Shown: positions 1 to 22,196 of the stretch, one piece after another
How positions within the stretch are numbered: the first letter of the stretch is position 1
Layout of the letters: every line of letters starts with the position of its first letter
Assembly: GCA_045541795.1 (NCBI GenBank)
Contig: JAZQJV010000018.1
Location: forward strand, 118,236-182,235
Direction of reading: 5' to 3'
Source of the DNA: Patescibacteria group bacterium
GTDB lineage: Bacteria > Patescibacteriota > Microgenomatia > UBA1400 > PJMF01
DNA: 64,000 nucleotides
Notes under the pieces: model-generated
What the model was told of the DNA's origin: nothing
The model's database searches: none
Seen by the model: only the letters and a program-made list of their open reading frames with translations
Position numbers and translations under genes: made by a program

Positions 1-28
1 CTCAAATGTAGTGGCGGTAAACAACCCC

Positions 29-56
29 TTGACAAAACAAATATTTCTGGTATAAT
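29..56 (+). promoter_or_regulatory. sigma70-type promoter (TTGACA, 16-nt spacer, TGgTATAAT)
   Basis: TTGACA at 29-34 and extended -10 ctggTATAAT at 48-56 read directly. Downstream are an AGGAGG at 139-144, a 16-codon sORF and the terminator at 325-355. Confidence 0.45.
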
Positions 57-324
57 CAGAGTTGTTCTTTGATATTGATTGCCGCTGCCGATTGCATGGC
101 GGTTTGGCGATCCGATAAAGACAAAATCTGGTTTTGCAGGAGGTGGCGGCCAATGATTGTGCGTTTGATGACGACTATGATTACAGATTGGGCGAACATC
201 TAGCTCTCAAAAGAAGTGGGACGACAGATAGGAAAAATGCGCTTTTGGGCAGACTGATGGGCTCTACACTGTCAGTCTAGGAAGCAAAGCTGTACCATTG
301 CAAATTCGGAAATAAGGTTCAATT

Positions 325-355
325 AGCCCCGGAAATAATCCCGGGGCTTTTTTTA
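325..355 (+). terminator. rho-independent terminator
   Basis: GC stem agccccgg/ccggggct with loop aaataat, followed by a T run (cttttttt). Confidence 0.6.
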
Positions 356-388
356 CACAGATACAGGCAGGTAAAACACACAGGTTAA

Positions 389-565
389 GTGGGTAAAGAA
401 TTATCTAGTAATCGCACTGAACACGTAATTTATTTGCTTGACGAGCCAACCACTGGTTTGCATTTTGAGGATGTACAGCGATTGCTTTCGATTTTAAGTT
501 CGCTGGTAGGACAAAACTCCAAGTCATGGACAGGTAAGTTTTTGGTCACTGAATTGGCGCGTTAG
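389..565 (+). pseudogene. uvrA: 3' remnant of excinuclease ABC subunit A (uvrA)
   Basis: Translation gives [31 protein letters not shown]..., matching the C-terminal ABC signature/Walker B region of UvrA ([20 protein letters not shown]). An in-frame stop lies immediately upstream and the sequence degenerates after the motif. There is no upstream uvrA body, and a terminator precedes it. Confidence 0.55.
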
Positions 566-600
566 TCGCAGAGAGTAATGTTTAGTTTTTGTGATGAATT

Positions 601-626
601 ACCCCGACCTTACGGTCGGGGTTATG
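601..626 (+). terminator. GC-rich hairpin, probable retained terminator of former uvrA
   Basis: 8-bp stem ccccgacc/ggtcgggg with loop ttac, followed by TTAT. It lies 36 nt after the remnant's stop codon. Confidence 0.4.
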
Positions 627-834
627 GACAAATGTGATATGAATTATTTTGAACAATTATGTCTACTCAAAATTATAGTGACTACGCCCAGATTAACCTG
701 ATAACACCTATTGAATATGATCACTATTCAATTAGTTTGTTTAGGTTTTATCAATGTGAAAATTAATAAGTTGCCCAGCACGAGTTTGTTATAATCGGCT
801 TTAGGTTAATAATTTGTCTGGTCACCAGGCATAA

Positions 835-1374
835 GTGCCAACATTATTAACTGGAGGTTATATCACTTTTGCCTGGAAATCCATATGCGACCATCATGAC
901 TATAATCGTATTGATTTGCATGCCTTTAGACTGGACAATAGCTTTACTTATACAGTTTCACTTACAGTCAATTATGACAAGGTTAATCTTTTAGAGAAAC
1001 TGCCAGTCTTACCAAAGTTCGAACAATTATTTATAACTTTCAATCAACCACAAATGCTACTGACCGATACTTTATTGTGGCACGCTGATCGTTGTTACCA
1101 ATTTCAGGGACAAACATTCAATTATGTCCTCATCAGAGCACTGGTAAAAGCCAATGGAGAAATTCCCTGGAACGATCAGCTGCTGCTGATGTATGATCCT
1201 GGTCCTCTTCATCTAAGTAGCTCGAAAATAGATGATAGAAGTACTTTAATTTGTCGTGCTATAGATGACCTTAACTTGGAGCTCAAACAAAAACTTAAAA
1301 TGAATTTTACACCGATACACAGACGTAAAAATAAATTTATTAAATTTGATAAACAAATTATACTATCGACATAG
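835..1374 (+). CDS. hypothetical protein (AT-rich island gene)
   Basis: 179-codon ORF (GTG start) with no recognizable motif. A promoter-like tttgtTATAATc lies about 40 nt upstream. Confidence 0.35.
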   Translation: MPTLLTGGYITFAWKSICDHHDYNRIDLHAFRLDNSFTYTVSLTVNYDKVNLLEKLPVLPKFEQLFITFNQPQMLLTDTLLWHADRCYQFQGQTFNYVLIRALVKANGEIPWNDQLLLMYDPGPLHLSSSKIDDRSTLICRAIDDLNLELKQKLKMNFTPIHRRKNKFIKFDKQIILST

Positions 1375-1469
1375 ACTCACTTAGCTGGAGTTACTCTAGG
1401 CTCAGTTTTTGCTTCTCTGGTAGTTTAATATCCCTGTCTAGAAATTAGTCGAGGCTATTAAACGACCGC

Positions 1470-1679
1470 ATGAGACAGAGCACAATAGTAGTACCAGCTC
1501 GCACCGACATCGGGAAAAAATATCGTACTAGCTACGACCCTATATCAGAGCAGGACGTTCACGATTTTATTGCTGCCGTTAAGGCAGATAGTGGATGGGT
1601 ATTGAAGTTTGATGAGGCAAAACAAACAGCCAATGATTTAATAGAGTTGGCCAAATTAGTCAATAAATATCAGGAATAA
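1470..1679 (+). CDS. small hypothetical protein (69 aa)
   Basis: Short ORF in the island with no recognizable domain. Confidence 0.3.
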   Translation: MRQSTIVVPARTDIGKKYRTSYDPISEQDVHDFIAAVKADSGWVLKFDEAKQTANDLIELAKLVNKYQE

Positions 1680-1693
1680 CTGTCTTAAAAGTC

Positions 1694-1722
1694 TTGCATT
1701 TTTAATCAATTTGTGATATAAA
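1694..1722 (+). promoter_or_regulatory. promoter (TTGCAT, 17-nt spacer, TGaTATAAA) for the DUF1016/AlbA_2 operon
   Basis: -35/-10 read directly. The ATG at 1736 lies 13 nt after the -10, giving a near-leaderless transcript. Confidence 0.45.
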
Positions 1723-1735
1723 GACCACATTAATT

Positions 1736-2824
1736 ATGACAAACACAAAAAAGATCCAGACAGTTACTAGTAACGATATGTCGATGTCTAATGATCAAGA
1801 GTATCGGGAATGGTTAGTCGACTTAAAAACAAGATATCAACATAGTCGCATTAAAGCATCTATAAAAATTAATTATGAGGTCATTTTTTATTACTGGTCT
1901 GTTGGTCGTGACATTGTGATTAAAAAAGCCGAATCAAAATGGGGTAGTGGTTTTTATGATAATTTGAGTCGCGATCTACGACGAGAATTACCTGGTATAC
2001 AGGGATTATCAAAAACAAATCTCAAATACATGAAGTACTTTTATGATCTTTTTCCAGATGTGTTTACTGATAAGTCAATTCGTCCACAAGTTGTGGACGA
2101 ATTGGAGCAAATACCTTGGGGACATATCCGATATATTATAGATAAGTGTCGCGGTGATCAACAAAAGGTGATATTTTTCATCAATAAGACCGTGGAAAAC
2201 AACTGGTCGAGAGCAATGCTGCTAAATTTCCTGGATACAGATCTTTACGAGAGGCAAGGGAAGGCGATTACGAATTTTACCAATAAGTTAGCTTCGCCTC
2301 AAGGAGAATTAGCTCAACAGCTTACCAAAGATCCTTACAGTTTTGACTTTCTTACTATGAGAGAAAACTATCAAGAAAAAGAGCTTAAGGATGCCCTGAT
2401 TGCTAATATTGAAAGATTTCTGCTGGAACTTGGCAAAGGTTTTGCTTATATGGGACGGGAATACCGCTTACAAATCGGTGAAACTGAAAAATTTATAGAT
2501 ATGCTCTTTTACAACACTGTCCTGCGTTGTTACGTGGTAGTAGAAGTCAAAGTGGAGAAATTTGAATCCGGACATTTAGGGCAATTGGGATTGTATGTGA
2601 CCGCGGTTAATCATCAGCTCAAAAACGAAACTGACAATCCCACTATCGGTCTGTTGATTTGCAAGAGCAAAGAGAATGTGGTGGCGAAATACTCGCTAGA
2701 AAGCATGGCGGTGCCGATCGGAATATCAGAATATGAGTTGCAAAAAATCTATCCCGCTGATTTCAAGAGTAGTTTGCCAACGATAGAGGAGATAGAGAAT
2801 GAGCTGGCTGATAATAACGATTAG
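1736..2824 (+). CDS. DUF1016/YhcG-family PD-(D/E)xK nuclease (paralog 1)
   Basis: N-terminal YhcG_N-like region (EYREWLVDLKTRYQHSRIKASIKINYE). C-terminal core has the D...EVK pattern (DMLFYNTVLRCYVVVEVKVEKFESGHLGQLGLYV) and the family C-terminal motif GISEYEL. Confidence 0.7.
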   Translation: MTNTKKIQTVTSNDMSMSNDQEYREWLVDLKTRYQHSRIKASIKINYEVIFYYWSVGRDIVIKKAESKWGSGFYDNLSRDLRRELPGIQGLSKTNLKYMKYFYDLFPDVFTDKSIRPQVVDELEQIPWGHIRYIIDKCRGDQQKVIFFINKTVENNWSRAMLLNFLDTDLYERQGKAITNFTNKLASPQGELAQQLTKDPYSFDFLTMRENYQEKELKDALIANIERFLLELGKGFAYMGREYRLQIGETEKFIDMLFYNTVLRCYVVVEVKVEKFESGHLGQLGLYVTAVNHQLKNETDNPTIGLLICKSKENVVAKYSLESMAVPIGISEYELQKIYPADFKSSLPTIEEIENELADNND

Positions 2825-2845
2825 TAAAAATTAAGGTAATAACAT

Positions 2846-4273
2846 ATGTTCACACCTTTTGGCAAGAATCTCGACAATCTAAGTTTTGAAGACATTCAAA
2901 AATTTTGCGATAAAGGTGTTGCTGAAAATATTTATATTGATTACAAGAAAGAAATTAATCAGAAGAATGATCATCTTGCCAAAACTATTGCGTCCTTTGC
3001 TAATACACATGGCGGCTGGATAATAATTGGAGTAGAAGATAAGAATGATCGTCCAAACTCTCCATTTAACGGGATTGACTATACAGATGGAATAGAGTCT
3101 AGTATAACTACTATAATTGTTGACAATATTTATCCATATGTCGAAGTTACATCAAAGGTTATTGTCAACCATGATAATAAAAGAGCTTTTGTTGTAGTGT
3201 ATGTCCCAGAAAGTCATAAAACACCACATTGGATTAACAGCAGAAGGGATCTTTATATTAGAGCTAATACTAGAACAAAAACTGGCAGAGATGATATTAA
3301 GAATAAAAACGAAGACTTGGATATTTACGCCACTTCTGAAAATTGGGAATTCTTAAGAAATAAAAGGGAAAGGTCTCAACAACTGGCAATAGAATTGGAA
3401 ACAGCTTTAAATCGTTTGTTTCTATCATATAAAGATAAAGAAGAACGTTTGTGGTATCAAAATAACGAAAAAGTTAAAAATAATCCGTCGCTGCAAAGTA
3501 TAATATCTGAAGATATGGATACACTCGACTGTGCAGATCCAAGTATCACAACAATTAAAAATAGGCGAGAGTTCAGAAGCGAATGTTATCATGATAACAT
3601 TAGTATTATTGTCCAGCCAGTTTTCCCATCATACGCTATTTCTTCACCGCGTGATTTGAGAGAACACTATTCGTCTAACAGCGGTGCAAACCTCACTAAC
3701 GTTGGTTCACTTGACGAAAACTACAAACTTGATTATTTTCAAAACGGGATAGTAACTTTTTTTACTCCCGACAATAAGACAGGCAACCATTGCGCATTTT
3801 TTGCTCAAGACATCTTTGGTTCGTGCATGGTAAAACACAAGATAGTTCAACACAATCGAAAGAAGATTGATAACTACCAGGGTTATGAAGTGCCGCCAAA
3901 TAGTAACATTATTGACTTTGAATACTTGATAGTTTATATTGAACAATTTTTAAAATATGCATCAGTTTTTTATAAACAAATTGGTTATTTAGGCGAACTT
4001 AGACTTAAGGTGGTCATGAATGTGCCAGAATGGTCATATATGATAATTCATGATTCAACCAAGAATTTTCCGCTTGCATATAGTAATTCTGATAAATATT
4101 TTCTTTGGGAGAAAGTTTTTATTAATGCTGATTTTGTTAACGATCAAGAACGAAATAAAATACTAAATACTATGTATGAAAGTATTGGATTCTTTTTTAA
4201 TTGTGACGAAATTCCTAAACAAATAATTAATAATCTGAGAAAGAATCCAAATAATGCTAATGAGCAACTTTAA
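2846..4273 (+). CDS. AlbA_2 (Schlafen-like) domain protein with large C-terminal region of unknown function
   Basis: The N-terminus (NLSFEDIQKFCDKGVAENIYIDYKKE...TIASFANTHGGWIIIGVEDKND) matches the AlbA_2/divergent-AAA DNA-binding fold signature (sAFANt.GG.iiiGv.d). It starts 21 nt after DUF1016 paralog 1, so is probably co-transcribed. Confidence 0.6.
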   Translation: MFTPFGKNLDNLSFEDIQKFCDKGVAENIYIDYKKEINQKNDHLAKTIASFANTHGGWIIIGVEDKNDRPNSPFNGIDYTDGIESSITTIIVDNIYPYVEVTSKVIVNHDNKRAFVVVYVPESHKTPHWINSRRDLYIRANTRTKTGRDDIKNKNEDLDIYATSENWEFLRNKRERSQQLAIELETALNRLFLSYKDKEERLWYQNNEKVKNNPSLQSIISEDMDTLDCADPSITTIKNRREFRSECYHDNISIIVQPVFPSYAISSPRDLREHYSSNSGANLTNVGSLDENYKLDYFQNGIVTFFTPDNKTGNHCAFFAQDIFGSCMVKHKIVQHNRKKIDNYQGYEVPPNSNIIDFEYLIVYIEQFLKYASVFYKQIGYLGELRLKVVMNVPEWSYMIIHDSTKNFPLAYSNSDKYFLWEKVFINADFVNDQERNKILNTMYESIGFFFNCDEIPKQIINNLRKNPNNANEQL

Positions 4274-4303
4274 CTTCCCGTCTCAAAAACTCCCCAATCA
4301 TGC

Positions 4304-4368
4304 TATAATCAACCTCAAGTAACTGGGTTCGGATTTCCCGCCAGAAACCACCAAAAAATAGGATATTG
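4304..4368 (+). repeat. direct repeat R1: orphan copy of a promoter plus 5'-leader module
   Basis: TATAATCA, 14 nt, then TGGGTtCGGATTTCCCGCCAGAAACCACC and an AAAAA..GGAT..TG tail. It is near-identical to 6839-6907 with the same spacing. No downstream gene follows on the + strand. Confidence 0.6.
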
Positions 4369-4423
4369 AAGTACGCAAATTATATCCATATAAAAACGAT
4401 ATTTTAAGCAAATTATTTGGTAT

Positions 4424-5602
4424 TTAATCATTATTGTTAATGTTTAAAAGTAATTGTAATCTTTTCATGATTTCATCGAATGTTATTATTATATTTCTGG
4501 AAACACTCTTTCTGAATAAGTTGAACGATCTTTCTTGTTCTTCAAGAAGTCCTGATTTGTTACCGATAATAATTATTCCTAATGGATCAAGAGCATTCAA
4601 GCGGTTATCTTCATAATCTTTTCCAATAAGAGTTGAAAAATTATCACTCGCAATTCTAATTTGATTTTCTAGTTGAACTATCGCACCACTCAATTCGTCA
4701 GACATGGAATAGCACACATTCTCTCCAACGGCATCTGAATTGCCTCTATATTGATGTCCAATAATGGCACTTTGCGGTGTTTTAATTTCAATAACTGCAA
4801 AGCTTTTATTTGAAAGATTTTGCAAAAGAAAATCAGCGGCGACTCCTCCTTGGCCGTTTCTTCCACGACTGTTCTTTCCTCCTAGATATGTTTCGCCATT
4901 CAAATAACAGACTGGACAATAAAACAAACTCTCAAAAATCCACTGATTTTCTGTGAAGAATGCTTGCCAAAAGTTTTCTTTTTGGTTATTATTCATATTT
5001 TTCGCAATTGTATTAATTGCATTCTGCAATTTGGCTAGTAATATAATATTTTCTAATACTCTGATGTTTCCTTTTCCTAAATCTCTTAACTTGGTAATAA
5101 CCATTTCCTTATTTTTAATATCGCCAATTTGCAATAAAACACTTTCTATATTTCCTTCTCCAATAGATATTGTTGTGGTTCCAAATTTAATACCGTTTTC
5201 ATTTAGAGTCTCTCTAATTAACGGTAAATGCTCAAAGAGATTTTTCATGGCTTCACCATCAAGGTTGAGATCATAAAATTCTCCTTTTCTTAACTTAGTA
5301 ACAGATAGGCCTTTATAACTTTGCCAGTTGTCATTAATTCCTTTTCTTTCCCATCTGAAACCTCCTCGCAATGGTTTGTCAGTTTGAGATGGGTCTACCC
5401 ACTTTGGGTAAAAAAGTAATCTTGTGCTTTCAGTTTCTTTTAGTATAATTGGGGAAATATCAGCGGTTTTATTGGAAGTAGATTTTATTGTTATATCTTT
5501 TGATTCTTTCTGTTTGTCTGTAAATCCCTTGCGAGGTAGCGTGAAATCTATTTCTCCTGAAATATTGCTAAAATCATATTTTGGAGTCATGGTGGCTTTC
5601 AA
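4424..5602 (-). CDS. DUF4263-type PD-(D/E)xK nuclease, Shedu (SduA)-like
   Basis: C-terminal GGVAADFLLQN...SFAVIEIKTP (D..EIK nuclease core) and the terminal block IIIIGNKSGLLEEQERSFNLF...IITFDEIM fit the DUF4263 pattern (viiGr...IlTYDdL). The gene is 392 aa with a variable N-terminal domain. It lies 6 nt downstream of DUF1016 paralog 2. Confidence 0.55.
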   Translation of the reverse strand: MKATMTPKYDFSNISGEIDFTLPRKGFTDKQKESKDITIKSTSNKTADISPIILKETESTRLLFYPKWVDPSQTDKPLRGGFRWERKGINDNWQSYKGLSVTKLRKGEFYDLNLDGEAMKNLFEHLPLIRETLNENGIKFGTTTISIGEGNIESVLLQIGDIKNKEMVITKLRDLGKGNIRVLENIILLAKLQNAINTIAKNMNNNQKENFWQAFFTENQWIFESLFYCPVCYLNGETYLGGKNSRGRNGQGGVAADFLLQNLSNKSFAVIEIKTPQSAIIGHQYRGNSDAVGENVCYSMSDELSGAIVQLENQIRIASDNFSTLIGKDYEDNRLNALDPLGIIIIGNKSGLLEEQERSFNLFRKSVSRNIIITFDEIMKRLQLLLNINNND

Positions 5603-5608
5603 TCAAAA

Positions 5609-6736
5609 TTACCTATTTGCTTCTAGCAACTTTTTCTCTATCTCCTCTATCGTCGGCATCGTTCCTTCCACCTTTTGCGGATACAACTTCTCCAGTTCGT
5701 ACTCCGAAATTCCCAATGGTTGATTGCTAGATTCCAAAGCATACTGAGCGATTAAATTATCTTTTTGCTTGCAAATGAGCAAACCGATAGTCGGATTATC
5801 TCGTCCTTCTTTTTGTAAAAGGTGATTGCAAGAAACCACGTAACCGCCAAGTTGCCCCAAATCGGCAAAATCAAATTCGCCAATTTTCACTTCAACCACA
5901 ACGTAACAAGACAACTGTAAATTATAGAAAAGCAAATCAATAAATTTTTCTTTCTCGCCGATTTGCAGTCGATACTCTTTTCCCACATACGCGAAGCCCG
6001 TGCCAAGTTCTAATAAAAATTTGGTTATATTTTCTAGCAGGGCATCTTTTAATTTACGTTCATTGTATTTATCGGTAATACCAGTAAAAGCAAAATTATA
6101 TGGATCTTTTGTTAATTCCTGAGCTAAATCGCTAGTAACATTGGGTAAGGTTTTGCCAAAATTCGTCAATGCTTTTCCTCGTCGATCATAAAGATCGGTT
6201 TCAATAAAATTGAGTAGCATATCTCGGCTCCAACCATTTTCTATTGTTTGGTGAACAAAAAAGAGTGCTTTTTGTGGTTCTGTTTTGAATTTATCAATTA
6301 ACAGCTTATGATGGCCCCACGGAACAGAAAAAATGTCGCTTTCAATTTTCTCAATGACTTGCTGAGTAATTACATTACTTTCTATTTGCTCCCCAACTTG
6401 GGGAGCAATTTCGAAATATTGATGGTAAAGTATATAAAAGTTTTTCATGTACAACAAATTTGTCGGCGAAAAACACGTTGCGTCAGGATTGAGAGTTTTA
6501 AGGTCTCGGCTGAGATTTTTCATGAAACCACTGCTCCATTTACTTTCGGCTTTCATTACCACAATGTCTCTGCCCAAATCATAGTAAAAACGAAGCATTT
6601 CCCGATTAACTTTTACTGCTGCTCTAACTTGGCTCAAGCGATAACGAGAAGAAAGCTTCCCAATCCACGAGGCATAATTTTCATCTAGAATTGTTAGTGA
6701 CTGAACTTGTTTTGCAACCTGTTTTTTCTCTGTCAT
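5609..6736 (-). CDS. DUF1016/YhcG-family PD-(D/E)xK nuclease (paralog 2)
   Basis: About 60% identical by eye to paralog 1 over its full length (shared ...KAESKW.SGF..NLSRDL..., PWGH, ENGWSR.MLLNF, DLLFYN..L.CYVVVEVK, GISEYELEKLYP). Confidence 0.7.
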   Translation of the reverse strand: MTEKKQVAKQVQSLTILDENYASWIGKLSSRYRLSQVRAAVKVNREMLRFYYDLGRDIVVMKAESKWSSGFMKNLSRDLKTLNPDATCFSPTNLLYMKNFYILYHQYFEIAPQVGEQIESNVITQQVIEKIESDIFSVPWGHHKLLIDKFKTEPQKALFFVHQTIENGWSRDMLLNFIETDLYDRRGKALTNFGKTLPNVTSDLAQELTKDPYNFAFTGITDKYNERKLKDALLENITKFLLELGTGFAYVGKEYRLQIGEKEKFIDLLFYNLQLSCYVVVEVKIGEFDFADLGQLGGYVVSCNHLLQKEGRDNPTIGLLICKQKDNLIAQYALESSNQPLGISEYELEKLYPQKVEGTMPTIEEIEKKLLEANR

Positions 6737-6747
6737 AGTGGCTATTA

Positions 6748-6776
6748 CTTATAGCACAATAACGCTATTTTGTCAA
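6748..6776 (-). promoter_or_regulatory. promoter (TTGACA, 17-nt spacer, TATAAG) for the DUF1016/Shedu-like operon; near-leaderless
   Basis: Reverse complement reads TTGACAaaatagcgttattgtgcTATAAGtaatagccactATG. The start codon lies about 11 nt after the -10. Confidence 0.5.
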
Positions 6777-6838
6777 TACTGATAATTAATTATTATTGGC
6801 ATTTATTTTCAATTCTTGCAAAAACAACTTCATACTGT

Positions 6839-6907
6839 TATAATCAGTTTCAAATAATTGGGTGCGGATTTCCCGCCAGAAACCACCCCAAAAAGATGGG
6901 ATTACTG
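6839..6907 (+). repeat. direct repeat R2: promoter plus 5' leader of the zinc-ribbon/TM2 gene
   Basis: TATAATCA, 14 nt, then TGGGTgCGGATTTCCCGCCAGAAACCACC and the AAAAAgATgGGATtAcTG tail. The ATG at 6923 follows. Confidence 0.6.
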
Positions 6908-6922
6908 CGATGAAAGTGAAAC

Positions 6923-7054
6923 ATGACAGATGAAAAAACAAAATACTGTAAACATTGCGGTTCGCTTATTGATGTAGAATTGCATAATATGCCCGAAGTG
7001 TGGCAAGCAGGTCGAACAAGTAAAAGCCGAGCTTCCAAATGTAGTGATCAATAA
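6923..7054 (+). CDS. zinc-ribbon protein fragment (CxxC half), probably the frameshifted N-terminal part of the TM2 gene
   Basis: MTDEKTKYCKHCGSLIDVELHN... terminates at TAA 7052. The second CxxC half (CIICPKCGKQVEQ) is encoded in the frame of the downstream TM2 ORF, starting just after an in-frame TAG at 6975. Confidence 0.4.
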   Translation: MTDEKTKYCKHCGSLIDVELHNMPEVWQAGRTSKSRASKCSDQ

Positions 7055-7256
7055 CAATAACACCAATTCGAATATAAACTATGCTGGTGCTGTGGGGAGC
7101 GGGCGGCCTATCAATAAGTGGATAGCTTTGGGTTTATGTCTTTTTCTGGGCATATTCGGTGCTCATAAGTTTTATGAAGGAAAGATTGGCATGGGAATAT
7201 TGTATTTGTTTACATTTGGTTTGTTTAGTCTTGGTTGGTTTTTAGATATTTTTTAA
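7044..7256 (+). CDS. TM2 domain membrane protein (C-terminal part of split gene)
   Basis: GAHKFYEGKIGMGILYLFTFGLFSLGWFLDIF matches the TM2 domain signature. GTG start at 7044. Its upstream frame continues stop-free back to 6978 and encodes CPKCG. Confidence 0.55.
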   Translation: MINNNNTNSNINYAGAVGSGRPINKWIALGLCLFLGIFGAHKFYEGKIGMGILYLFTFGLFSLGWFLDIF

Positions 7257-7355
7257 TCCTAACAAAGCCTAATCCTTATTACATATAATACTTTTACATT
7301 TGCGTTTTTATTATAACTACGTTATAATAACACAAACTTTAAGGAAAATATAAAC

Positions 7356-8429
7356 ATGAAAAATCATCGAAAATTCCATCCTCGCATTATTGTCAATATC
7401 ATCTGTCTTTTTTCATTGGCATTATCTCACATTATTTTTTCGCTACCGATTAAAATAATTGATACAGTTTATGCCGTCGAGCGTGAAACTGTCACTGTGA
7501 GCCGTGTGATTGATGGTGATACAATCGTTTTGAATGATGGGCGAAAGGTTAGATATATTGGAATTGATACACCAGAAACAGTTCATCCAACAAAAAATGT
7601 GCAGTGTTTTGGGAAACAAGCCAGTAACAAAAATAGAGAATTAGTCCTTGGTAAAACTGTGGAACTGGAAAAAGATATCAGTGAAACTGATCGCTATGGA
7701 CGTTTACTCAGATATGTATATTTGGATGGCGTCATGATTAATCATAAATTAGTCGCTGAAGGTTATGCCACAACCGTAACCTATCCTCCAGATGTTAAGT
7801 ATAAAGAAGAATTCTCCAAAGCTCAGGCGCAGGCAAGACAAGCAAGACTTGGGCTATGGGGTAATGAATGCAACGAAAGCAGCAGCACTCACGCATCCTC
7901 AAACAACAATGCTAGCTCAAATACAAATAAAATGGATTCGTCAAGCACATCGTCATCATCTCAAAACAACAAAACTCAAAATGACCATGAAGGCAACCAA
8001 GCTTCTACTCAACCAACTAACACTAGCGCACAAAAATGTCCATCAAATTGTAGTGAGGCCAAAAGCATGGGAATGGTTAACATTACACCGTCGCATCCAT
8101 GCTGGCAAGAAAAATTTGATGGCGATAAAGATGGCGTGGGTTGTGAAAGTGACAACCGGTCTACCAATACAAAAACAACTAACAAATCCAATAATGTCAA
8201 TAAACAGACCAGTGCTACGCCGGCACCCACGCCAGTGCCAAGTCGCGCCCCAACGCCAGAACCAACCCCACCGCCTACGTCAGTGCCAGCTCCAGCTGCG
8301 CCAACCCAATCTTGTCCAAATAACTGTACCCAAGCAAAGGCAATGGGAATGGCCAATATGACACCTTCTCATCCTTGTTGGCAATCTAAATTTGACCGAG
8401 ATAAAGACGGTATTGGTTGCGAAGACTAG
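7356..8429 (+). CDS. secreted thermonuclease (SNase-like) with two C-terminal Excalibur calcium-binding domains
   Basis: N-terminal TM/signal segment. SNase core (VSRVIDGDTIVLNDGRKVRYIGIDTPE...DRYGRLLRYVYLDGVMINHKLVAEGYA). A PT-rich linker is followed by two copies of C.xNC..AK.MGMxN.TPSHPCWQ.KFD.DKDG.GCE (Excalibur DxDxDG...CE). Confidence 0.7.
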   Translation: MKNHRKFHPRIIVNIICLFSLALSHIIFSLPIKIIDTVYAVERETVTVSRVIDGDTIVLNDGRKVRYIGIDTPETVHPTKNVQCFGKQASNKNRELVLGKTVELEKDISETDRYGRLLRYVYLDGVMINHKLVAEGYATTVTYPPDVKYKEEFSKAQAQARQARLGLWGNECNESSSTHASSNNNASSNTNKMDSSSTSSSSQNNKTQNDHEGNQASTQPTNTSAQKCPSNCSEAKSMGMVNITPSHPCWQEKFDGDKDGVGCESDNRSTNTKTTNKSNNVNKQTSATPAPTPVPSRAPTPEPTPPPTSVPAPAAPTQSCPNNCTQAKAMGMANMTPSHPCWQSKFDRDKDGIGCED

Positions 8430-8438
8430 AAAGTAAAA

Positions 8439-9119
8439 ATGTCACAAAAAGATAATAGCAAACATTCTTGCAGAATAATCATGGCCGCATTGCTAGTGCT
8501 TCTAAGCATTGCATTGCTGCATAAATCTTTTTTTGCTGCCGCCTTCACTATCTGCTACGCATATCTCATCTCGCCACTATCAATTCAATTGGTAAGTAAA
8601 ATATGTAAGAAAGAAAATGAGAAATGGCTATATTCAACCATGACTTTTATTTTTGCTCTTTGCTGGATGACCACAATTCAAACTGGTCAGCCACAAATGG
8701 ATAATGTGTTAACGCAAAATAGTGAAAAAAACGCATCGCTAGAGAATGCGTCAACACAAAATAATGAAAAAATCGCTTCACTAGAAAAAGAGCTCCAATC
8801 AGTTAAGAACGAAAGAGATGAAATTCAAGCAAACAACCAAAAAAGAGCCATTTCAGCTGCCAAATCATATTTGGAATACAGTCCAATGTCGAGCCGAGAG
8901 TTGATTAAGCAACTCGAGTTAGAAGAATTTTCTCATGAAGACGCAGCATACGGTGTAGAGCATGCTGATATCAATTGGAACGATCAAGCATCACGGTCAG
9001 CAGTCCTCTTTATTGAGTTTGCTAATCCGTCAACCGAAGAATTAAAAAAACAACTTGAGTACGAAGGTTTCACAAGCAACGAAATAAAATTCGCCATTGA
9101 GCATAATAGTAATGGGTAA
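8439..9119 (+). CDS. membrane protein with tandem Ltp-family (host cell surface-exposed lipoprotein-like) domains
   Basis: Two N-terminal hydrophobic segments, then two repeats fitting the Ltp pattern (AISAAKSYLEYSPMSSRELIKQLELEEFSHEDAAYGVEHADINWNDQA, then SRSAVLFIEFANPSTEELKKQLEYEGFTSNEIKFAIEH). Confidence 0.6.
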   Translation: MSQKDNSKHSCRIIMAALLVLLSIALLHKSFFAAAFTICYAYLISPLSIQLVSKICKKENEKWLYSTMTFIFALCWMTTIQTGQPQMDNVLTQNSEKNASLENASTQNNEKIASLEKELQSVKNERDEIQANNQKRAISAAKSYLEYSPMSSRELIKQLELEEFSHEDAAYGVEHADINWNDQASRSAVLFIEFANPSTEELKKQLEYEGFTSNEIKFAIEHNSNG

Positions 9120-9148
9120 ATGACTCTATTGCTTCCAGTAAGGAAAGT

Positions 9149-9490
9149 ATGCCATCTACCAAAAGTTACCTTAATCACCTTCTAACTCAATTCTCGCAGT
9201 TGGATGATATTTCTTACCGCTCGATGATGGGGGAGTATATCATTTATTTCAAAGGCAAAGTAGTAGGTGGAATTTATGATGATCGATTTTTGGTCAAGAC
9301 AACAAAATCTGCACTCGCGTTGATGCCAAACACAAGCAAAGAATTACCATATCCCGGTGCGAAAGAAATGTTGTTGGTAGACGATACGGGAGACAAAGTA
9401 TTTTTACGCGAGCTGCTGACCGCGATATATGAGGAGCTGTCAGTGGTAAAGAAAAAAGAAAGCACATTAAAACGTTTATTAACGAATTGA
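9149..9490 (+). CDS. TfoX/Sxy N-terminal domain protein
   Basis: MMGEYIIYFKGKVVGGIYDDRFLVK resembles the TfoX_N core (MFGG.G.y.ng.mFa.i.dd.LylK). The ORF is 113 aa and has no C-terminal TfoX domain. Confidence 0.45.
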   Translation: MPSTKSYLNHLLTQFSQLDDISYRSMMGEYIIYFKGKVVGGIYDDRFLVKTTKSALALMPNTSKELPYPGAKEMLLVDDTGDKVFLRELLTAIYEELSVVKKKESTLKRLLTN

Positions 9491-9502
9491 CATTCATTGT
9501 CC

Positions 9503-10165
9503 TCATCTTTGACGTCTCGCTCTCTCCATATACTCTCTTTGCACCCGCATAAATAATTCCTTATCTGCCAAAAGCGTCCGGATCTCATTTAAAAAACGCT
9601 CGTACTCCGGATCAGAAAAAAAGTATTTCGCATAGCCGCCCTCACCAAATTTTTCTTTCAGGTGTTGCCAACTTCTCACAAACAATTGCTCGTCACTAAA
9701 ATCCGGATGTAAATTTTTACCATACACAAAACTTCGATACAAACAATCTTCTACGCTCGTATTTCTGTCCGCCGTGGACACAATTTTCCCGTACACGCTC
9801 CGGGGCTCGTGATTGCTTGAAGCACGATGATCTTCGATTGCCTCTTTAATCAGTTTTAATTGTTTACCGCTAAAAAAATCAGGCAAATGCTTATCCTCAC
9901 TCATCATCCGCGCAGAAATAATCTCATGCTTGGCTGGATCAATGTGATGTCCCAGATCATGATAAGCAGCCACAGTGTAGACAATGTCTAAGTTAACGTC
10001 GGTCAGTTTTTGCGCCAAGTTAATACTTCTTTCAATGACATATTTAATGTGTTTTAAATTATGAGCTGGCTCATTTTGAGCGTACTGCGGGAAAACATTT
10101 TGCTGGATGTATGTTTGTAATTTTCTATTGACGGTAGGATAAAAATTATTTTCTAACATAAACAT
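9503..10165 (-). CDS. HD-domain phosphohydrolase
   Basis: H..HD motif (HNLKH...AAYHDLGHHID) plus a downstream D. The start is reassigned to the ATG of MFMLENN because a TGtTATAAT -10 lies inside the longer TTG-initiated ORF, making the transcript leaderless. Confidence 0.6.
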   Translation of the reverse strand: MFMLENNFYPTVNRKLQTYIQQNVFPQYAQNEPAHNLKHIKYVIERSINLAQKLTDVNLDIVYTVAAYHDLGHHIDPAKHEIISARMMSEDKHLPDFFSGKQLKLIKEAIEDHRASSNHEPRSVYGKIVSTADRNTSVEDCLYRSFVYGKNLHPDFSDEQLFVRSWQHLKEKFGEGGYAKYFFSDPEYERFLNEIRTLLADKELFMRVQREYMERARRQR

Positions 10166-10269
10166 TACTATATTATAACACGAGCAGACATTTTGAAAGC
10201 TCAAAAATATAGCGTCCAGTTTTTACAACTTTCGCTCATTTCACCTTACCGGTATGGTATAATACCCCT

Positions 10270-10695
10270 ATGCAAAAATCAAATAATCTTATTTCAATTA
10301 TTTTGTGTGTGATCGCGGTGGTGAGTCTCGCTCTCAATGTCTACTGTGTCAATCAAAAACACACTCAGCCGGCGCCATCAAGTCAACTTGCCGAGGCACA
10401 GGCGGCCTACAAACTTTACATCGTCATCCCAGATAGTGTCACTGATACAGATAATTACATCCGTGAGCTGGAAACAATACTTGCCAATCGTGTCCCCGGC
10501 TACACGATGTATCCCACTCGTGGCGGCTCGCATGAAGACGACGGCAGCATGAGTTATCAGACCACTTTGGTCTGCGAGCTTTACGGCACTGATAAACAAA
10601 CTGTCACCCAAATTGCCCATCAAGTGATGACCAGTTTTAATGTGAACAGTGTGCCGGTGGCAACTCTTAGTTCACAGTGGGAAATAATTCGTTGA
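10270..10695 (+). CDS. hypothetical membrane-anchored or secreted protein
   Basis: N-terminal hydrophobic segment (LISIILCVIAVVSLALNVYC). No known motif. The promoter ggtaTGgTATAAT ends 8 nt before the ATG. Confidence 0.4.
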   Translation: MQKSNNLISIILCVIAVVSLALNVYCVNQKHTQPAPSSQLAEAQAAYKLYIVIPDSVTDTDNYIRELETILANRVPGYTMYPTRGGSHEDDGSMSYQTTLVCELYGTDKQTVTQIAHQVMTSFNVNSVPVATLSSQWEIIR

Positions 10696-10735
10696 CGATC
10701 ATTACTGTGTAAAACTGGTACAAAACGCTACAGGT

Positions 10736-11833
10736 ATGGTGCAAACATTGATTAGGCGCTATTGGCAAACTGCATTCGCTGTTGTCCTCGTGTGTCTGTC
10801 ACTGTGGCAGCTGAGGTCTTTGTGGACTCTTCACCAATTAGATTTTCACGTTTATTATCAAGCTGGTAAAGCTTGGCGAGATGGCGGTGATCCTTATGGC
10901 GATCTAGGTCTTGGTGAAAGTTTGACCTTCCTTTATCCCGCCCCTGCTTTGCTTATCTTTTGGCCGCTTTCATTTTTGGATCTGGAGACAGCACAAAAAG
11001 TGTGGTTGCTCATCAATCTGAGTTTGATTTTTGCCAGTGTTTATTTGTGTCTCACGCTCCATCGCACGAAAATTGCCTTAGCATCAGTAATGCTGTTTTA
11101 TGCTTTTGTCCTGCAAACATTTAGCGTCAAGTATAATCTTGGCATGGGGCAGATTAATGTTTTAGTGTTATTTTTGGTTTTATCCACCTGTCACTTGCTT
11201 TCTCGCCAGCATACAAGGTTAGCGGGTTTCTTTTTAGGGCTGGCGGGCGTCGTTAAAATCTGGCCTTTGGCCTTGTTGCCGTTTTTGTTATCTAAAAAAC
11301 AGTGGACAGTGTCTATAGTCGCCATTCTCACATTTTTGCTGCTTCAATTGCCTTGGTGGCAGACGACGGCGCGCAGTTTTGCCGCTGTCAGCGCGCACTT
11401 ACATACGGCAGGGTCAATCAGCGATGACGTCTACGACCAGTCGTTTATTGTTGCCCTTAATCGTCTGATGAATTGGTCGGGATGGAAAATAGTAGTGCCG
11501 GCCGCGATGATCGCCATTTACGCCTTTGTAAGCTATCGCTTTGGCCAATGCTTACCAATTGATGAAGTTTGCTTGTTTCTAATCATTCCCATCATTTTTG
11601 CGGCGTCGCCGGTGTACGCTCACTATCTGATTTATCTTTATCCGTGCTTATATCTATTACTCCGGCGCCATTGGCTGGCTTTGCTGTGTGCTTGGTTGTC
11701 GGTGCAAATTAAAATTGGTACGGATACAGTGTGGTATTTACGCTCGTATTATGCATGGTGGGCAGCATTGCTTTGTATTATAGCATTGGTTTATGGCGGC
11801 AGCAAAAAGAATTGGCATCGACTTCCCGTATAA
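10736..11833 (+). CDS. polytopic membrane glycosyltransferase, DUF2029/GT87-like
   Basis: DFHVYYQAGKAWRDGGDPYGD in the first loop resembles the DUF2029/PimE-type signature. More than 9 predicted TM segments. Confidence 0.5.
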   Translation: MVQTLIRRYWQTAFAVVLVCLSLWQLRSLWTLHQLDFHVYYQAGKAWRDGGDPYGDLGLGESLTFLYPAPALLIFWPLSFLDLETAQKVWLLINLSLIFASVYLCLTLHRTKIALASVMLFYAFVLQTFSVKYNLGMGQINVLVLFLVLSTCHLLSRQHTRLAGFFLGLAGVVKIWPLALLPFLLSKKQWTVSIVAILTFLLLQLPWWQTTARSFAAVSAHLHTAGSISDDVYDQSFIVALNRLMNWSGWKIVVPAAMIAIYAFVSYRFGQCLPIDEVCLFLIIPIIFAASPVYAHYLIYLYPCLYLLLRRHWLALLCAWLSVQIKIGTDTVWYLRSYYAWWAALLCIIALVYGGSKKNWHRLPV

Positions 11834-12025
11834 ATTTTCTCCTGGTGTCGCGTTTCGGGTTTGTACCTAGGTAATTCCAATTTCCTTTTCGCATTTTTTA
11901 TGGTATAATCACGCATCTTACTCACTTTCACGGTCAGATCATCACGGTTTTGCTCGTGGAGGCGGGTGAAATCAGATCTTTGACAAGTGAAGTGAAATCA
12001 TACATCCTTAAAGGAGGAATTTCCA

Positions 12026-14049: not shown

Positions 14050-14088
14050 TTTCACCAGTCTAGCCAAACTAGACATCTTGTCAATCGC

Positions 14089-14112
14089 GCCGCCCTGTAT
14101 AGGGCGGCTTTT
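14089..14112 (+). terminator. rho-independent terminator between convergent genes
   Basis: gccgccct / gtat / agggcggc followed by TTTT. Confidence 0.6.
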
Positions 14113-14125
14113 ACGGTGTTAATTA

Positions 14126-15766: not shown

Positions 15767-15816
15767 TTAGCGCTCGCTTCAAACTACCCAAGATAGTCGC
15801 TTTCGCCCGGTTGGGT

Positions 15817-15844
15817 CTTGACAAATAGCGATTTTATGGTATAA
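15817..15844 (+). promoter_or_regulatory. promoter (TTGACA, 16-17-nt spacer, TGgTAATAA) abutting the infA start codon
   Basis: The -10 ends about 7 nt before ATG 15852, implying a leaderless transcript unless a downstream start is used. Confidence 0.5.
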
Positions 15845-15851
15845 TAAGAAT

Positions 15852-16175
15852 ATGGGTAAGGTACAAGCACATAAAAGAGCAGAAAAAGCCAAAAGACAGG
15901 TGAATTTTCAGCTGGATAAAGTCAAGAATCCAGACATGTTTGAATTTGAAGGCATTGTGGAGGACTGTCTGCCCAATACCAGTTTCCGCCTTAGCGTCAC
16001 CAGTTCCTCGCTCGAACCGCTTGTAGGTAAAAAACTGCTGGCGACACTAGCCGGCAAAATGCGCCTCTACCGCATCCGGGTGATGCCCGGTGATCAGGTC
16101 AAAGGATATGTGTCAAAATATGATCTAACTAAGGCAAAAATCACCTATAGATCCACAAAAAAGACTTCGGCGTAA
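15852..16175 (+). CDS. infA: translation initiation factor IF-1 with N-terminal extension
   Basis: The core (LPNTSFRL...GKMRLYRIRVMPGDQVKGYVSKYDLTKAKITYR) aligns to IF-1 (LPNTMFRV...GKMRKNYIRILTGDKV...PYDLSKGRIVFR). Confidence 0.75.
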   Translation: MGKVQAHKRAEKAKRQVNFQLDKVKNPDMFEFEGIVEDCLPNTSFRLSVTSSSLEPLVGKKLLATLAGKMRLYRIRVMPGDQVKGYVSKYDLTKAKITYRSTKKTSA

Positions 16176-16245
16176 ATTGGATGTACATTCTTGATAAATT
16201 GTGATATAATAGCGATTCTTAACAGGGAAAAAATGAGAAAGAAAA

Positions 16246-16359
16246 ATGAAAGTCAGATCGTCAGTTAAACCACTCTGCAATAAGTGTAAAGTAGTCAAGC
16301 GTCGTGGCGTCGTGCGTGTAGTCTGCACGAATCCAAAACACAAACAAAGACAAGGTTAA
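16246..16359 (+). CDS. rpmJ: 50S ribosomal protein L36
   Basis: [37 protein letters not shown] matches L36. It is not in the ORF track because it is under 60 aa. An extended -10 tgTGaTATAAT lies upstream at 16201-16210. Confidence 0.8.
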
Positions 16360-16367
16360 AGGTCAAT

Positions 16368-16778: not shown

Positions 16779-16784
16779 TAGACT

Positions 16785-17186: not shown

Positions 17187-17197
17187 GGAATACTAAT

Positions 17198-17806: not shown

Positions 17807-17812
17807 AGGGGA

Positions 17813-18772: not shown

Positions 18773-18774
18773 TT

Positions 18775-19353: not shown

Positions 19354-19355
19354 CT

Positions 19356-19787: not shown

Positions 19788-19793
19788 AAGCGT

Positions 19794-22195: not shown

Positions 22196-22196
22196 A

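What the first reader, a model, noticed from the sequence alone, without database searches (positions are those of the whole stretch)
600..9500. Compositional discontinuity: the left about 9 kb is markedly more AT-rich than the core-gene regions
By eye, the island genes (835-7256 and the nuclease/Ltp/TfoX block) are rich in A/T runs and AAT/AAA/ATT codons. From about 10.3 kb onward, genes (GH3, ribosomal operon, ligase) are near 50% GC with GC-rich third positions. Together with the uvrA remnant at the left edge, this marks a horizontally acquired or fast-evolving accessory island.
Basis: seen in the sequence. Interest (0 to 1): 0.4.

Follow-up and report, generated by a model that had tools for sequence, protein, structure and literature searches.

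The report
Low-GC anti-phage defence island beside uvrA remnant
The left 9 kb of this window really is much more AT-rich than the rest because it is an accessory gene island, mostly anti-phage nucleases, that differs between strains; this is a common kind of feature in bacterial genomes.

Summary
GC is 0.350 for 601-7300 and 0.393 for 7301-10250, against 0.480 for 10251-64000. The best single change point is at 10310 (0 of 1000 block shuffles reach its score). All three codon positions, amino-acid composition and the GC-corrected tetranucleotide signature shift too.

The region is a mosaic accessory island (about 566-9528):
- an orf179/orf69/YhcG1/Schlafen-AlbA_2 module;
- an inverted YhcG2-SduA (Shedu) module bracketed by a 75-nt repeat;
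- a frameshifted TM2 gene;
- a secreted nuclease, an Ltp-like exclusion protein and a TfoX_N gene.

No integrase or att repeats were found. The left edge is a true uvrA pseudogene. At the right edge, homology to a strain of the same species (98.5% nt identity) stops at 9528, inside the last codons of the HD gene.

The YhcG1-Schlafen module recurs at 82% nt identity in another MAG. There it also lies downstream of uvrA, next to tRNA-His, and shows the same GC step (0.49 to 0.355). It has fewer synonymous differences than the flanking uvrA, which points to horizontal exchange. The island is ordinary in kind: a new member of the defence-island class.

The parts
362..565 (+). uvrA pseudogene remnant. 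It covers the C-terminal ABC Walker-B region plus the extreme C-terminus. It is 5'-truncated, has an in-frame stop at 386-388, and has lost about 45 codons at about 517/518.
   Evidence: phmmer against PDB UvrA chains: E 4.5e-14 to 1e-9, matching residues about 825-857 and then 900-913 of 3pih. It is 92.5% aa / 78.8% nt identical to the 3' end of the uvrA reading frame, uninterrupted over the 123 codons held, in L026; the alignment shows the missing block NTVILIEHN...ARCP.
598..625 (.). GC-rich 8-bp hairpin (CCCCGACC-TTAC-GGTCGGGG) just after the uvrA remnant. The local GC change point (621) falls here, so this is the left edge of the AT-rich region.
   Evidence: Sequence read; change point.
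835..1374 (+). orf179, unknown function. Its C-terminal 124 aa are conserved (70% aa) in the L026 copy of the module.
   Evidence: No Pfam, PADLOC or PHROG hit. tblastn to L026. dN/dS about 0.17. The AF2 single-sequence model is unusable (pLDDT 34.8).
1470..1679 (+). orf69, unknown function. Its L026 counterpart carries an in-frame stop.
1736..2824 (+). YhcG1: DUF1016_N + YhcG_C PD-(D/E)XK nuclease (PADLOC candidate defence gene PDC-S02). The D...EVK motif is present.
   Evidence: Pfam 7.6e-60 / 4.3e-34. PADLOC PDC-S02 3.3e-150. 89% aa identity to the L026 copy, dN/dS 0.09.
2846..4273 (+). Schlafen/AlbA_2-domain protein (475 aa) with an unannotated C-terminal 330 aa. It starts 21 nt after YhcG1, so the two are probably one operon.
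   Evidence: Pfam SLFN_AlbA_2 6.9e-17. Full-length relatives of 400-455 aa exist, and there is one 81%-identical copy, which lies next to a YhcG gene in L026. dN/dS 0.22.
4284..4358 (+). 75-nt element, copy A (extended -10 TGCTATAAT plus a conserved leader TGGGTnnGGATTTCCCGCCAGAAA). No gene lies downstream. Homology to L026 ends inside it, at 4347.
   Evidence: the repeat finder D2, 79% identity to copy B. The core motif occurs only twice in 64 kb, with 0 expected, and once in L026 at the module end.
4424..5602 (-). Shedu nuclease SduA (SduA_N + SduA_C; DFL...IEIKTP catalytic motif). The likely true start is at 5590 (388-aa form).
   Evidence: Pfam 9.2e-22 / 7.4e-12. PADLOC SduA 1.3e-68. PDB 8ti8 SduA E 1.1e-36 over both domains. 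100% match to a 388-aa NCBI protein; the next best is only 54%.
5609..6736 (-). YhcG2: a second DUF1016/YhcG nuclease, 53% aa identical to YhcG1 and in inverted orientation. It ends 6 nt upstream of SduA, so the two are probably one operon.
6819..6893 (+). 75-nt element, copy B: TTGCAA-17-TATAAT promoter with TG, plus leader, upstream of the TM2 gene. With copy A it brackets the SduA-YhcG2 module.
6930..7256 (+). Zinc-ribbon + TM2-domain gene. The N-terminal zinc ribbon is split over two frames, so the gene is probably a pseudogene or N-terminally truncated.
   Evidence: The conceptual translation hits Pfam TM2 at 2.7e-17. The frames were read from the sequence.
7356..8429 (+). Secreted staphylococcal-type nuclease with two Excalibur Ca-binding domains.
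   Evidence: Pfam SNase 2e-28, Excalibur 3.8e-21 x2. The only match above 60% identity is its own genome.
8439..9119 (+). Membrane protein with two Ltp repeats (phage-type superinfection-exclusion family).
   Evidence: Pfam Lipoprotein_Ltp 6.5e-19. PHROG 4980 'superinfection exclusion' 6.1e-28.
9149..9490 (+). TfoX_N-domain protein (113 aa).
   Evidence: Pfam TfoX_N 3.7e-07, just above the gathering score.
9503..10165 (-). HD-domain phosphohydrolase. It is resident (96.5% aa identical, tblastn, in the conspecific strain) but low in GC (0.39). Its last ~8 codons (9503-9527) lie beyond the homology break at 9528 and differ from all homologues.
   Evidence: Its nearest other homologues (57-63%) lie on contigs of 26-27% GC.
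10304..10310 (.). Compositional change point: GC rises from 0.39 to 0.48.

Best explanation
Window positions about 566-9528 form a strain-variable, mosaic accessory island. It sits in a variable spot downstream of uvrA and is built mostly from anti-phage and anti-DNA genes that came from a lower-GC gene pool.

Shown:
- The composition step is real.
- Gene identities: Shedu SduA, two YhcG/DUF1016 PD-(D/E)XK nucleases, a Schlafen/AlbA_2 protein, an Ltp-like exclusion protein and a secreted SNase.
- The uvrA gene at the left edge is a pseudogene remnant.
- Homology with a 98.5%-identical strain ends at 9528, with the window carrying the derived HD C-terminus.
- The 3.3-kb orf179-orf69-YhcG1-Schlafen module recurs at 82% nt identity in a different MAG. 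There it is also downstream of uvrA, directly after tRNA-His, and has the same 0.355 GC against 0.49 flanks.

Inferred:
- The modules arrived and were reshuffled by recombination, with no integrase of their own. Exchange probably used conserved flanks and the shared 75-nt promoter/leader element.
- The low GC, and the AT-shifted amino-acid composition, reflects a long history in AT-richer genomes and/or continued exchange with such a pool.
- In function, SduA would cut invading DNA after sensing free DNA ends, as described for Shedu. The YhcG nucleases and the Schlafen-like protein would act as further nucleic-acid-targeting effectors, apparently as two operons (YhcG1 then Schlafen; YhcG2 then SduA). 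Ltp would block phage DNA entry.
- The HD gene (9503-10165) is an older, now resident, low-GC acquisition. This explains why the GC step (about 10304) lies 0.8 kb to the right of the strain breakpoint.
For: Composition.

Gene identities.

uvrA remnant: (PDB UvrA, E down to 4.5e-14, two pieces). Searches align it to the uvrA 3' end of L026, uninterrupted over the 123 codons held, and show the 45-codon gap and the 5' truncation.

Strain variability: L024 matches window 14003-26776 at 98.47%. L005, from the same sample, matches 9528-12187 and nothing to the left of that. The HD C-terminus of L005 (YIGKLKHSG...) resembles distant homologues (YINNLKAKG, YIKKLESKE), whereas the window's (YMERARRQR*) does not. 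SduA and SNase have no orthologue above 60% other than their own genome, while GT87, the ligase, L17 and S9 do have orthologues from that JGI sample.

Mobility of the module: L026 (GCA_017431295.1) has the order uvrA, His_Phos_1, tRNA-His, module, other genes. GC is 0.487, then 0.355, then 0.392. Among identical-aa codons, 56% differ in uvrA against 19-34% in the module genes (pooled Fisher p = 1e-4). dN/dS of 0.09-0.22 shows the module genes are under purifying selection.

Defence-context precedent: the nearest SduA homologues sit inside type I RM operons. DUF1016 is enriched next to RM/BREX genes (PMC9881135).
Against: There is no integrase, transposase or flanking direct repeat. No copy of the tRNA-His 3' end was found in the window or in L026, so the insertion mechanism is not shown.

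The conspecific comparison covers only 381 nt to the left of the breakpoint. No true 'empty site' joining the left and right flanks was recovered.

The core comparator for the synonymous-site test is only 38 codons of a gene that is a pseudogene in the window, and AT-rich codon usage lowers the apparent synonymous divergence in the module.

The nearest SduA homologues (50-54%) lie on 41-45% GC contigs, so no low-GC donor is identified for that gene.

The module lies downstream of uvrA in both genomes. This could also mean it was inherited from a common ancestor.

Defence activity of YhcG/PDC-S02 and of this Schlafen-like protein is predicted, not demonstrated.
Confidence: 0.8

Rival explanations
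1. The region is ancient and vertically inherited. It is AT-rich only because dispensable genes under weak selection drift towards the AT-biased mutational equilibrium ('fast-evolving', not transferred).
For: The module lies downstream of uvrA in two diverged genomes. No mobility genes or att repeats were found. Pseudogenes are present (uvrA, TM2; the Schlafen and orf69 copies in L026). The resident HD gene is also low in GC.
Against: The module genes are under purifying selection (dN/dS 0.09-0.22). GC1, GC2 and amino-acid composition are shifted as well as GC3. The module's synonymous divergence is lower than that of the adjacent uvrA (p = 1e-4). The flanks of the module differ between the two genomes. 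A 98.5%-identical strain breaks homology at 9528. The module has the same GC (0.354 vs 0.355) in both hosts, with no sign of drift towards 0.48.
Confidence: 0.1
2. It is a remnant of a prophage or an integrative element that entered at tRNA-His and has since lost its integrase and structural genes.
For: In L026 the low-GC module begins about 60 nt after tRNA-His. Ltp-type exclusion proteins and SNase- and YhcG-like genes have PHROG families.
Against: There are no phage structural, replication or integrase genes in 1-10.3 kb. No tRNA-His fragment or att repeat was found. Nothing resembling the island as a whole was found in 50,697 phage records or 72,556 plasmids (only short 67-74% YhcG-type patches), and no relatives of YhcG1 or the Schlafen protein in IMG/VR.
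Confidence: 0.07
3. It is an assembly or binning artefact: a low-GC fragment from another organism joined to this contig.
For: The source is evidently a metagenome assembly. The conspecific strain's contigs break near this region.
Against: An independent assembly (L005) spans the low-GC HD gene into the normal-GC GT87/GH3 genes. A second independent MAG (L026) joins a normal-GC uvrA to the same low-GC module. In the window, the orthologous uvrA remnant is contiguous with the module. The HD ORF ends cleanly in a stop 23 nt beyond the breakpoint.
Confidence: 0.03

Closest known systems
Defence islands (clusters of anti-phage genes in variable genomic hotspots; the concept of Makarova et al. 2011 and Doron et al. 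2018, cited from my own knowledge)
   Same: It has several nucleic-acid-targeting defence genes side by side (SduA, 2x YhcG/PDC-S02, Schlafen-like, Ltp-like). Its composition is atypical, it varies between strains, its structure is mosaic, and it carries decaying genes.
   Different: It is small (about 9 kb) and lacks RM, CRISPR or any mobility gene. It lies in an uncultivated lineage known only from metagenomes. Only SduA belongs to an experimentally validated family.
Shedu (SduA, DUF4263) single-gene defence system (bioRxiv 10.1101/2023.08.10.552762 and 10.1101/2023.08.10.552793; PDB 8ti8)
   Same: It has the same two-domain architecture (SduA_N + SduA_C). It aligns to 8ti8 over both domains (E 1.1e-36) with the DFL...IEIKTP nuclease motif conserved.
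   Different: It is 6 nt downstream of a YhcG nuclease gene and so probably co-transcribed with it, whereas canonical Shedu is a single gene. Its nearest relatives (50-54%) are embedded in type I RM operons behind DUF4145 or unknown genes. No activity was tested.
DUF1016/YhcG PD-(D/E)XK nucleases (PADLOC candidate PDC-S02; genes enriched next to RM and BREX loci, PMC9881135)
   Same: Both copies are full-length matches to DUF1016_N + YhcG_C and to PDC-S02 profiles (E about 1e-150), and they sit in a defence context.
   Different: Here there are two diverged paralogues (53% aa) in inverted orientation. Each precedes a different partner (Schlafen-like; SduA) and neither is inside an RM operon.
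tRNA-associated genomic islands
   Same: In the second MAG (L026) the low-GC module starts about 60 nt after tRNA-His, with an abrupt GC drop.
   Different: There is no integrase and no tRNA-derived direct repeat. In the window itself there is no tRNA at the island edge.
Ltp-type superinfection exclusion proteins of temperate phages (e.g. Streptococcus thermophilus TP-J34 Ltp; from my own knowledge)
   Same: It has two Ltp repeats and hits the PHROG 'superinfection exclusion' families.
   Different: Its N-terminus looks like a multi-helix membrane anchor rather than a lipoprotein signal (read from the sequence, not tested). There is no prophage around it.

Membership tests
Horizontally acquired genomic island | Base composition and codon usage deviate from the host genome | tested here: met
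   GC is 0.350/0.393 against 0.480. GC3 is 0.25-0.42 against 0.44-0.61. Tetranucleotide r is 0.48-0.76 against at least 0.80. Block shuffles: 0/1000.
Horizontally acquired genomic island | Present in some genomes and absent or different in close relatives | tested here: met
   A 98.5%-identical strain loses homology at 9528. There are no SduA or SNase orthologues from that strain's metagenome. However, only 381 nt of the alternative state is visible.
Horizontally acquired genomic island | The same segment occurs in a different genomic context in another lineage, with a history incongruent with its flanks | tested here: met
   L026 carries 3.3 kb at 82% nt identity with different neighbours. 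19-34% of synonymous codons differ, against 56% in the adjacent uvrA (p = 1e-4, 38 codons only).
Horizontally acquired genomic island | Mobility genes (integrase, transposase or relaxase) | tested here: not met
   None was found among the ten ORFs scanned plus the TM2 pseudogene (Pfam, PHROG, PADLOC). Intergenic gaps are under 300 nt.
Horizontally acquired genomic island | Flanking direct repeats or an att site, typically from a tRNA 3' end | tested here: not met
   No boundary repeats were found. The tRNA-His 3' end of L026 is not repeated in L026 or in the window. The only tRNA in the window is tRNA-Glu at 23.8 kb.
Defence island | At least two known or candidate defence systems are adjacent | tested here: met
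   SduA (validated family), plus 2x PDC-S02 (candidate), plus an Ltp-like exclusion protein. The Schlafen/AlbA_2 protein has no PADLOC hit.
Shedu (SduA) | SduA_N + DUF4263/SduA_C architecture | tested here: met
   Both Pfam domains score above the gathering threshold. PADLOC SduA 1.3e-68.
Shedu (SduA) | PD-(D/E)XK catalytic motif intact | tested here: met
   DFL...IEIKTP aligns with the same residues of PDB 8ti8.
Shedu (SduA) | Confers phage resistance by DNA-end-dependent cleavage | not testable with these tools
   This needs expression and phage challenge. The mechanism is taken from bioRxiv 10.1101/2023.08.10.552762.
DUF1016/YhcG (PDC-S02) | DUF1016_N + YhcG_C domains with the D...E-x-K motif | tested here: met
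   Both copies: Pfam 1e-57 to 1e-60 and 1e-30 to 1e-34; FID(M/L)LFY...VVVEVK is visible in the sequence.
Integron-like cassette array | Cassettes bounded by attC-type imperfect palindromes, with an intI integrase | tested here: not met
   The 75-nt elements bracket the SduA-YhcG2 module. However, they read as promoter plus leader, no palindromic arms were evident on reading them, and no integrase is present.

The most novel reading that the evidence does not exclude
YhcG/DUF1016 may not be a stand-alone nuclease. It could be the conserved first gene of two-gene defence operons with interchangeable effectors (YhcG1 with a Schlafen/AlbA_2 protein; YhcG2 with Shedu SduA). The 75-nt promoter/leader element at module ends would then serve as the homology patch through which such cassettes are swapped between islands. 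The YhcG-Schlafen pair is conserved under purifying selection in two diverged genomes. That is compatible with a functional unit but does not prove one.
Probability: 0.15. Interest if true: 0.45.

Novelty: new member of a known kind. Interest (0 to 1): 0.3.

Why it matters
The result shows that a compositional step spotted by eye marks a real, strain-variable defence island in an uncultivated bacterium that is known only from metagenome assemblies. It adds a Shedu variant that is probably co-transcribed with a DUF1016 nuclease, and a conserved DUF1016 + Schlafen/AlbA_2 gene pair that could be tested as a defence system. It also locates a variable hotspot downstream of uvrA (and of tRNA-His in a relative). 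For annotation, 566-9528 should be treated as accessory. The uvrA fragment should be labelled a pseudogene, and the HD gene a resident gene whose 3' end was clipped. None of this changes current understanding of genomic islands.

Tried and rejected
1. Fetching the source contig to see left of the window. The exact products of SduA (both starts), Schlafen, GT87 and YhcG1 are not in the position index.

2. Synteny through the GTDB genome collection with GT87.

3. Synteny through JGI metagenomes with the HD protein. It returned only 57-63% homologues on 26-27% GC contigs that share no other gene with the window.

4. A more distant relative, via S13 (L015, GCA_017431625.1). Synteny left of the ribosomal operon is not conserved.

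5. The idea that the left end of L005 encodes a UvrA C-terminus (an 'empty site'). There is no PDB hit, and it does not resemble the orthologous uvrA end seen in L026 and the window. Rejected.

6. The idea that the 75-nt repeats are YhcG gene fragments. There is no tblastn support. Rejected: they read as promoter plus leader.

7. Programmed inversion between the two inverted YhcG genes. The inverted repeats are only 71-88% complementary over at most 63 nt, there is no invertase, and the literature places DUF1016 next to inversion targets rather than as a target. Rejected.

8. Rfam. Nothing was found in 1-900 or 4200-7400 beyond terminator-like noise.

9. Plasmid, phage and IMG/VR searches for the island or its genes. 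They returned only short 67-74% YhcG-type patches.

10. AlphaFold2 single-sequence models of orf179 and the Schlafen protein. pLDDT was 34-35, so the models are unusable and no fold search was run.

11. tRNA-His-derived att repeats. None were found.

12. Taxonomy. Named relatives are labelled only '[bacterium]'. Named SduA homologues are from Parcubacteria and Saccharibacteria. The organism remains unassigned.

Full report
**1. Observation**

The compositional discontinuity is real and strong.
- Sliding-window GC is 0.32-0.38 across 500-7500 and 0.38-0.43 across 7500-10500. With few exceptions it is 0.43-0.55 from 10.5 kb on.
- Segment GC is 0.350 (601-7300), 0.393 (7301-10250) and 0.480 (10251-64000). 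No 6.7-kb window on the right falls below 0.448.
- A maximum-likelihood single change point falls at 10310 (2LLR 458). In 1000 shuffles of 500-nt blocks the largest value was 113.
- Local searches place the left edge at 621, an internal step at 7472 and the right edge at 10304.

The anomaly is not only a third-position effect.
- GC1, GC2 and GC3 are all lower in the nine left genes (p = 5e-6, 5e-4, 3e-6).
- FYMINK residues rise from 0.252 to 0.358, and GARP residues fall from 0.249 to 0.166.
- A codon-adaptation index built from the window's own core genes is lower (p = 3e-4).
- The GC-corrected tetranucleotide signature correlates with the rest of the window at only 0.48-0.59 for 1-7500 and 0.69-0.76 for 6000-10500. 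It is at least 0.80 everywhere else.

The right-hand side is ordinary core DNA: GH3, uS13, uS11, uS4, RpoA and an ATP-dependent ligase.

**2. What is there**

From left to right:
- A uvrA remnant (362-565).
- orf179 and orf69, both of unknown function.
- YhcG1 (DUF1016 PD-(D/E)XK nuclease; PADLOC candidate PDC-S02, E 3e-150).
- Twenty-one nt later, a 475-aa Schlafen/AlbA_2 protein.
- A 75-nt element (4284-4358).
- On the minus strand, SduA (Shedu). Both Pfam domains are present, PADLOC gives 1e-68, and PDB 8ti8 gives E 1e-36 with the DFL...IEIKTP motif conserved. It lies 6 nt downstream of YhcG2, which is 53% identical to YhcG1.
- A second copy of the 75-nt element (6819-6893, 79% identical). 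It reads as a TTGCAA-17-TATAAT promoter plus leader.
- A zinc-ribbon/TM2 gene whose N-terminus is split over two frames.
- A secreted SNase with two Excalibur domains.
- A membrane protein with two Ltp repeats (PHROG 'superinfection exclusion', 6e-28).
- A TfoX_N protein.
- An HD phosphohydrolase on the minus strand.

There is no integrase, transposase or phage structural gene. No boundary direct repeats were found.

**3. The uvrA remnant**

The peptide encoded at 389-565 matches UvrA chains in the PDB, with E values down to 4.5e-14. It matches in two pieces: the Walker-B region, then the extreme C-terminus. A contig from another MAG (L026) encodes the orthologous uvrA 3' end, an uninterrupted reading frame over the 123 codons held by the contig. 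Against it, the window copy is 92.5% identical in protein. The window copy lacks about 45 internal codons, has an in-frame stop, and has lost everything upstream. It is a true pseudogene.

**4. Relatives**

The organism is rare in public data. Its GT87 neighbour has only two close homologues among 5.8 billion proteins. One JGI metagenome (3300011008) holds a strain of the same species. Its 23-kb contig matches window 14003-26776 at 98.47% in a single alignment of equal length.

A 3-kb contig from the same sample (L005) matches 9528-12187. Left of 9528 it matches nothing in the window. The break lies about 8 codons before the HD stop codon. Distant HD homologues end ...YINNLKAKGIIK or ...YIKKLESKEK. 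L005 continues ...YIGKLKHSG..., while the window reads ...YMERARRQR*. The window therefore carries the derived junction. Whatever brought in the DNA to the left clipped the end of the HD gene.

Consistently, SduA and the SNase have no orthologue above 60% other than their own genome. GT87, the ligase, L17 and S9 all have orthologues at 90% or more from that JGI sample.

**5. A second copy of part of the island**

An exhaustive profile-free search found an 81%-identical Schlafen homologue. Its contig (L026, GCA_017431295.1) carries the whole orf179(C-terminal part)-orf69-YhcG1-Schlafen-75-nt-element block at 82.4% nt identity over 3338 nt.

In L026 the order is: uvrA 3' end, a histidine phosphatase, tRNA-His (1323-1398), then the module starting about 60 nt later, then unrelated genes. 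GC runs 0.487, then 0.355, then 0.392. The window copy of the module is 0.354. So the same module shows the same GC step in a second host, again downstream of uvrA but with different immediate neighbours.

The module genes are under purifying selection (dN/dS 0.09-0.22). Among codons that encode the same amino acid, 19-34% differ in the module genes, against 56% in the adjacent uvrA fragment (pooled Fisher p = 1e-4). For scale, the figure is 48% for uS4 between the window and another related MAG. This indicates that the module was shared between the lineages more recently than their core genes diverged.

The caveats are that the uvrA comparator is only 38 codons and is a pseudogene in the window. 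AT-rich codon usage also compresses synonymous divergence.

**6. Interpretation**

The best reading (confidence about 0.8) is a mosaic, strain-variable defence and accessory island at about 566-9528. It was assembled from at least three modules:
- orf179 to Schlafen;
- YhcG2-SduA, bracketed by the 75-nt element;
- SNase-Ltp-TfoX, with a slightly higher GC.

It sits in a variable spot downstream of uvrA. The HD gene is low in GC but resident. Its nearest homologues lie on contigs of 26-27% GC, which suggests an older acquisition. This explains why the compositional edge (about 10304) lies to the right of the strain breakpoint (9528).

How the modules moved is inferred, not shown. With no recombinase and no att repeats, the likeliest route is homologous or illegitimate recombination at conserved flanks, or at the shared 75-nt element.

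The function of SduA follows the published Shedu mechanism: DNA-end sensing and cleavage by a PD-(D/E)XK tetramer (bioRxiv 10.1101/2023.08.10.552762 and .552793). The roles of YhcG and the Schlafen-like protein are predictions from domain content and context. DUF1016 is enriched next to RM and BREX genes (PMC9881135).

**7. Rivals**

- Vertical inheritance with AT drift (about 0.1). It is weakened by purifying selection on the module, shifted GC1/GC2, lower synonymous divergence than the flank, differing flanks and the conspecific breakpoint.
- A degraded prophage or integrative element at tRNA-His (about 0.07). It has only the L026 tRNA adjacency in its favour. No phage or integrase genes, att repeats, or phage/plasmid/IMG-VR matches were found.
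- An assembly chimera (about 0.03). It is contradicted by two independent assemblies that span normal-GC and low-GC DNA.

**8. Novelty and score**

This is a new member of a well-known kind, a defence island with atypical composition. Two details are mildly interesting. Both YhcG paralogues head two-gene operons with different partners, and the YhcG-Schlafen pair is conserved in two genomes. Interest is 0.3.

Noticed in passing
window 29-352 (+): A perfect sigma-70 consensus promoter (TTGACA-16-TATAAT with TG, 12/12) is followed by a transcript of about 295 nt that ends in a canonical intrinsic terminator (325-348 plus a T-run). The fold z-score is -2.85, and no Rfam family matches. The transcript contains a 16-codon ORF (MIVRLMTTMITDWANI) behind a strong AGGAGG Shine-Dalgarno sequence. 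It could be an unknown sRNA, a small-peptide gene, or an orphaned leader/attenuator.
   Followed up: partly
window 4284-4358 and 6819-6893; L026 4725-4795: A conserved 75-nt promoter-plus-leader element has the invariant core TGGGTnnGGATTTCCCGCCAGAAA. It lies at the right end of the YhcG1-Schlafen module in both genomes, and a second time after the SduA-YhcG2 module. Only copy B has a gene downstream. It is absent from IMG/VR and has no Rfam hit.
   Followed up: partly
window 6930-7256 (+): In this TM2-domain gene the N-terminal zinc ribbon (CxxC...CPKC) is split across two reading frames. One shift is next to an A-run. The gene is probably a pseudogene, or possibly phase-variable.
   Followed up: partly
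window 11950-14049 (+): The GH3 gene has the highest GC in the window (0.537). The conspecific strain's assembly has a contig gap exactly over it: L005 ends at 12187 and L024 starts at 14003. GH3 may therefore also be strain-variable or foreign.
   Followed up: no
L007-L010 (nearest SduA homologues): Shedu genes 50-54% identical to this one sit inside type I restriction-modification operons. They lie between hsdM and hsdS/hsdR, preceded by a DUF4145 gene or an unknown gene.
   Followed up: no
L011-L014; L012 1033-2329: The closest homologues of the HD protein (57-63%) are on contigs of only 26-27% GC. L012 carries two tandem HD paralogues.
   Followed up: no
L026 3290-4698 and about 1900-2100: In the second MAG the Schlafen gene is split into 76-aa and 412-aa ORFs, and the orf69 homologue has an in-frame stop. 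That copy of the module is decaying, while the window's copy is intact.
   Followed up: partly
window 8037-8147 and 8313-8423: A 111-nt internal direct repeat (71% identity) corresponds to the duplicated Excalibur domain with its linker in the secreted nuclease. The linker between the domains is a low-complexity S/T/N/P-rich region.
   Followed up: no
L005 204-381: In the conspecific strain the HD ORF runs on for about 60 extra codons of unrelated sequence past the normal C-terminus. That strain may therefore carry its own rearrangement or a lost stop codon at this hotspot.
   Followed up: no
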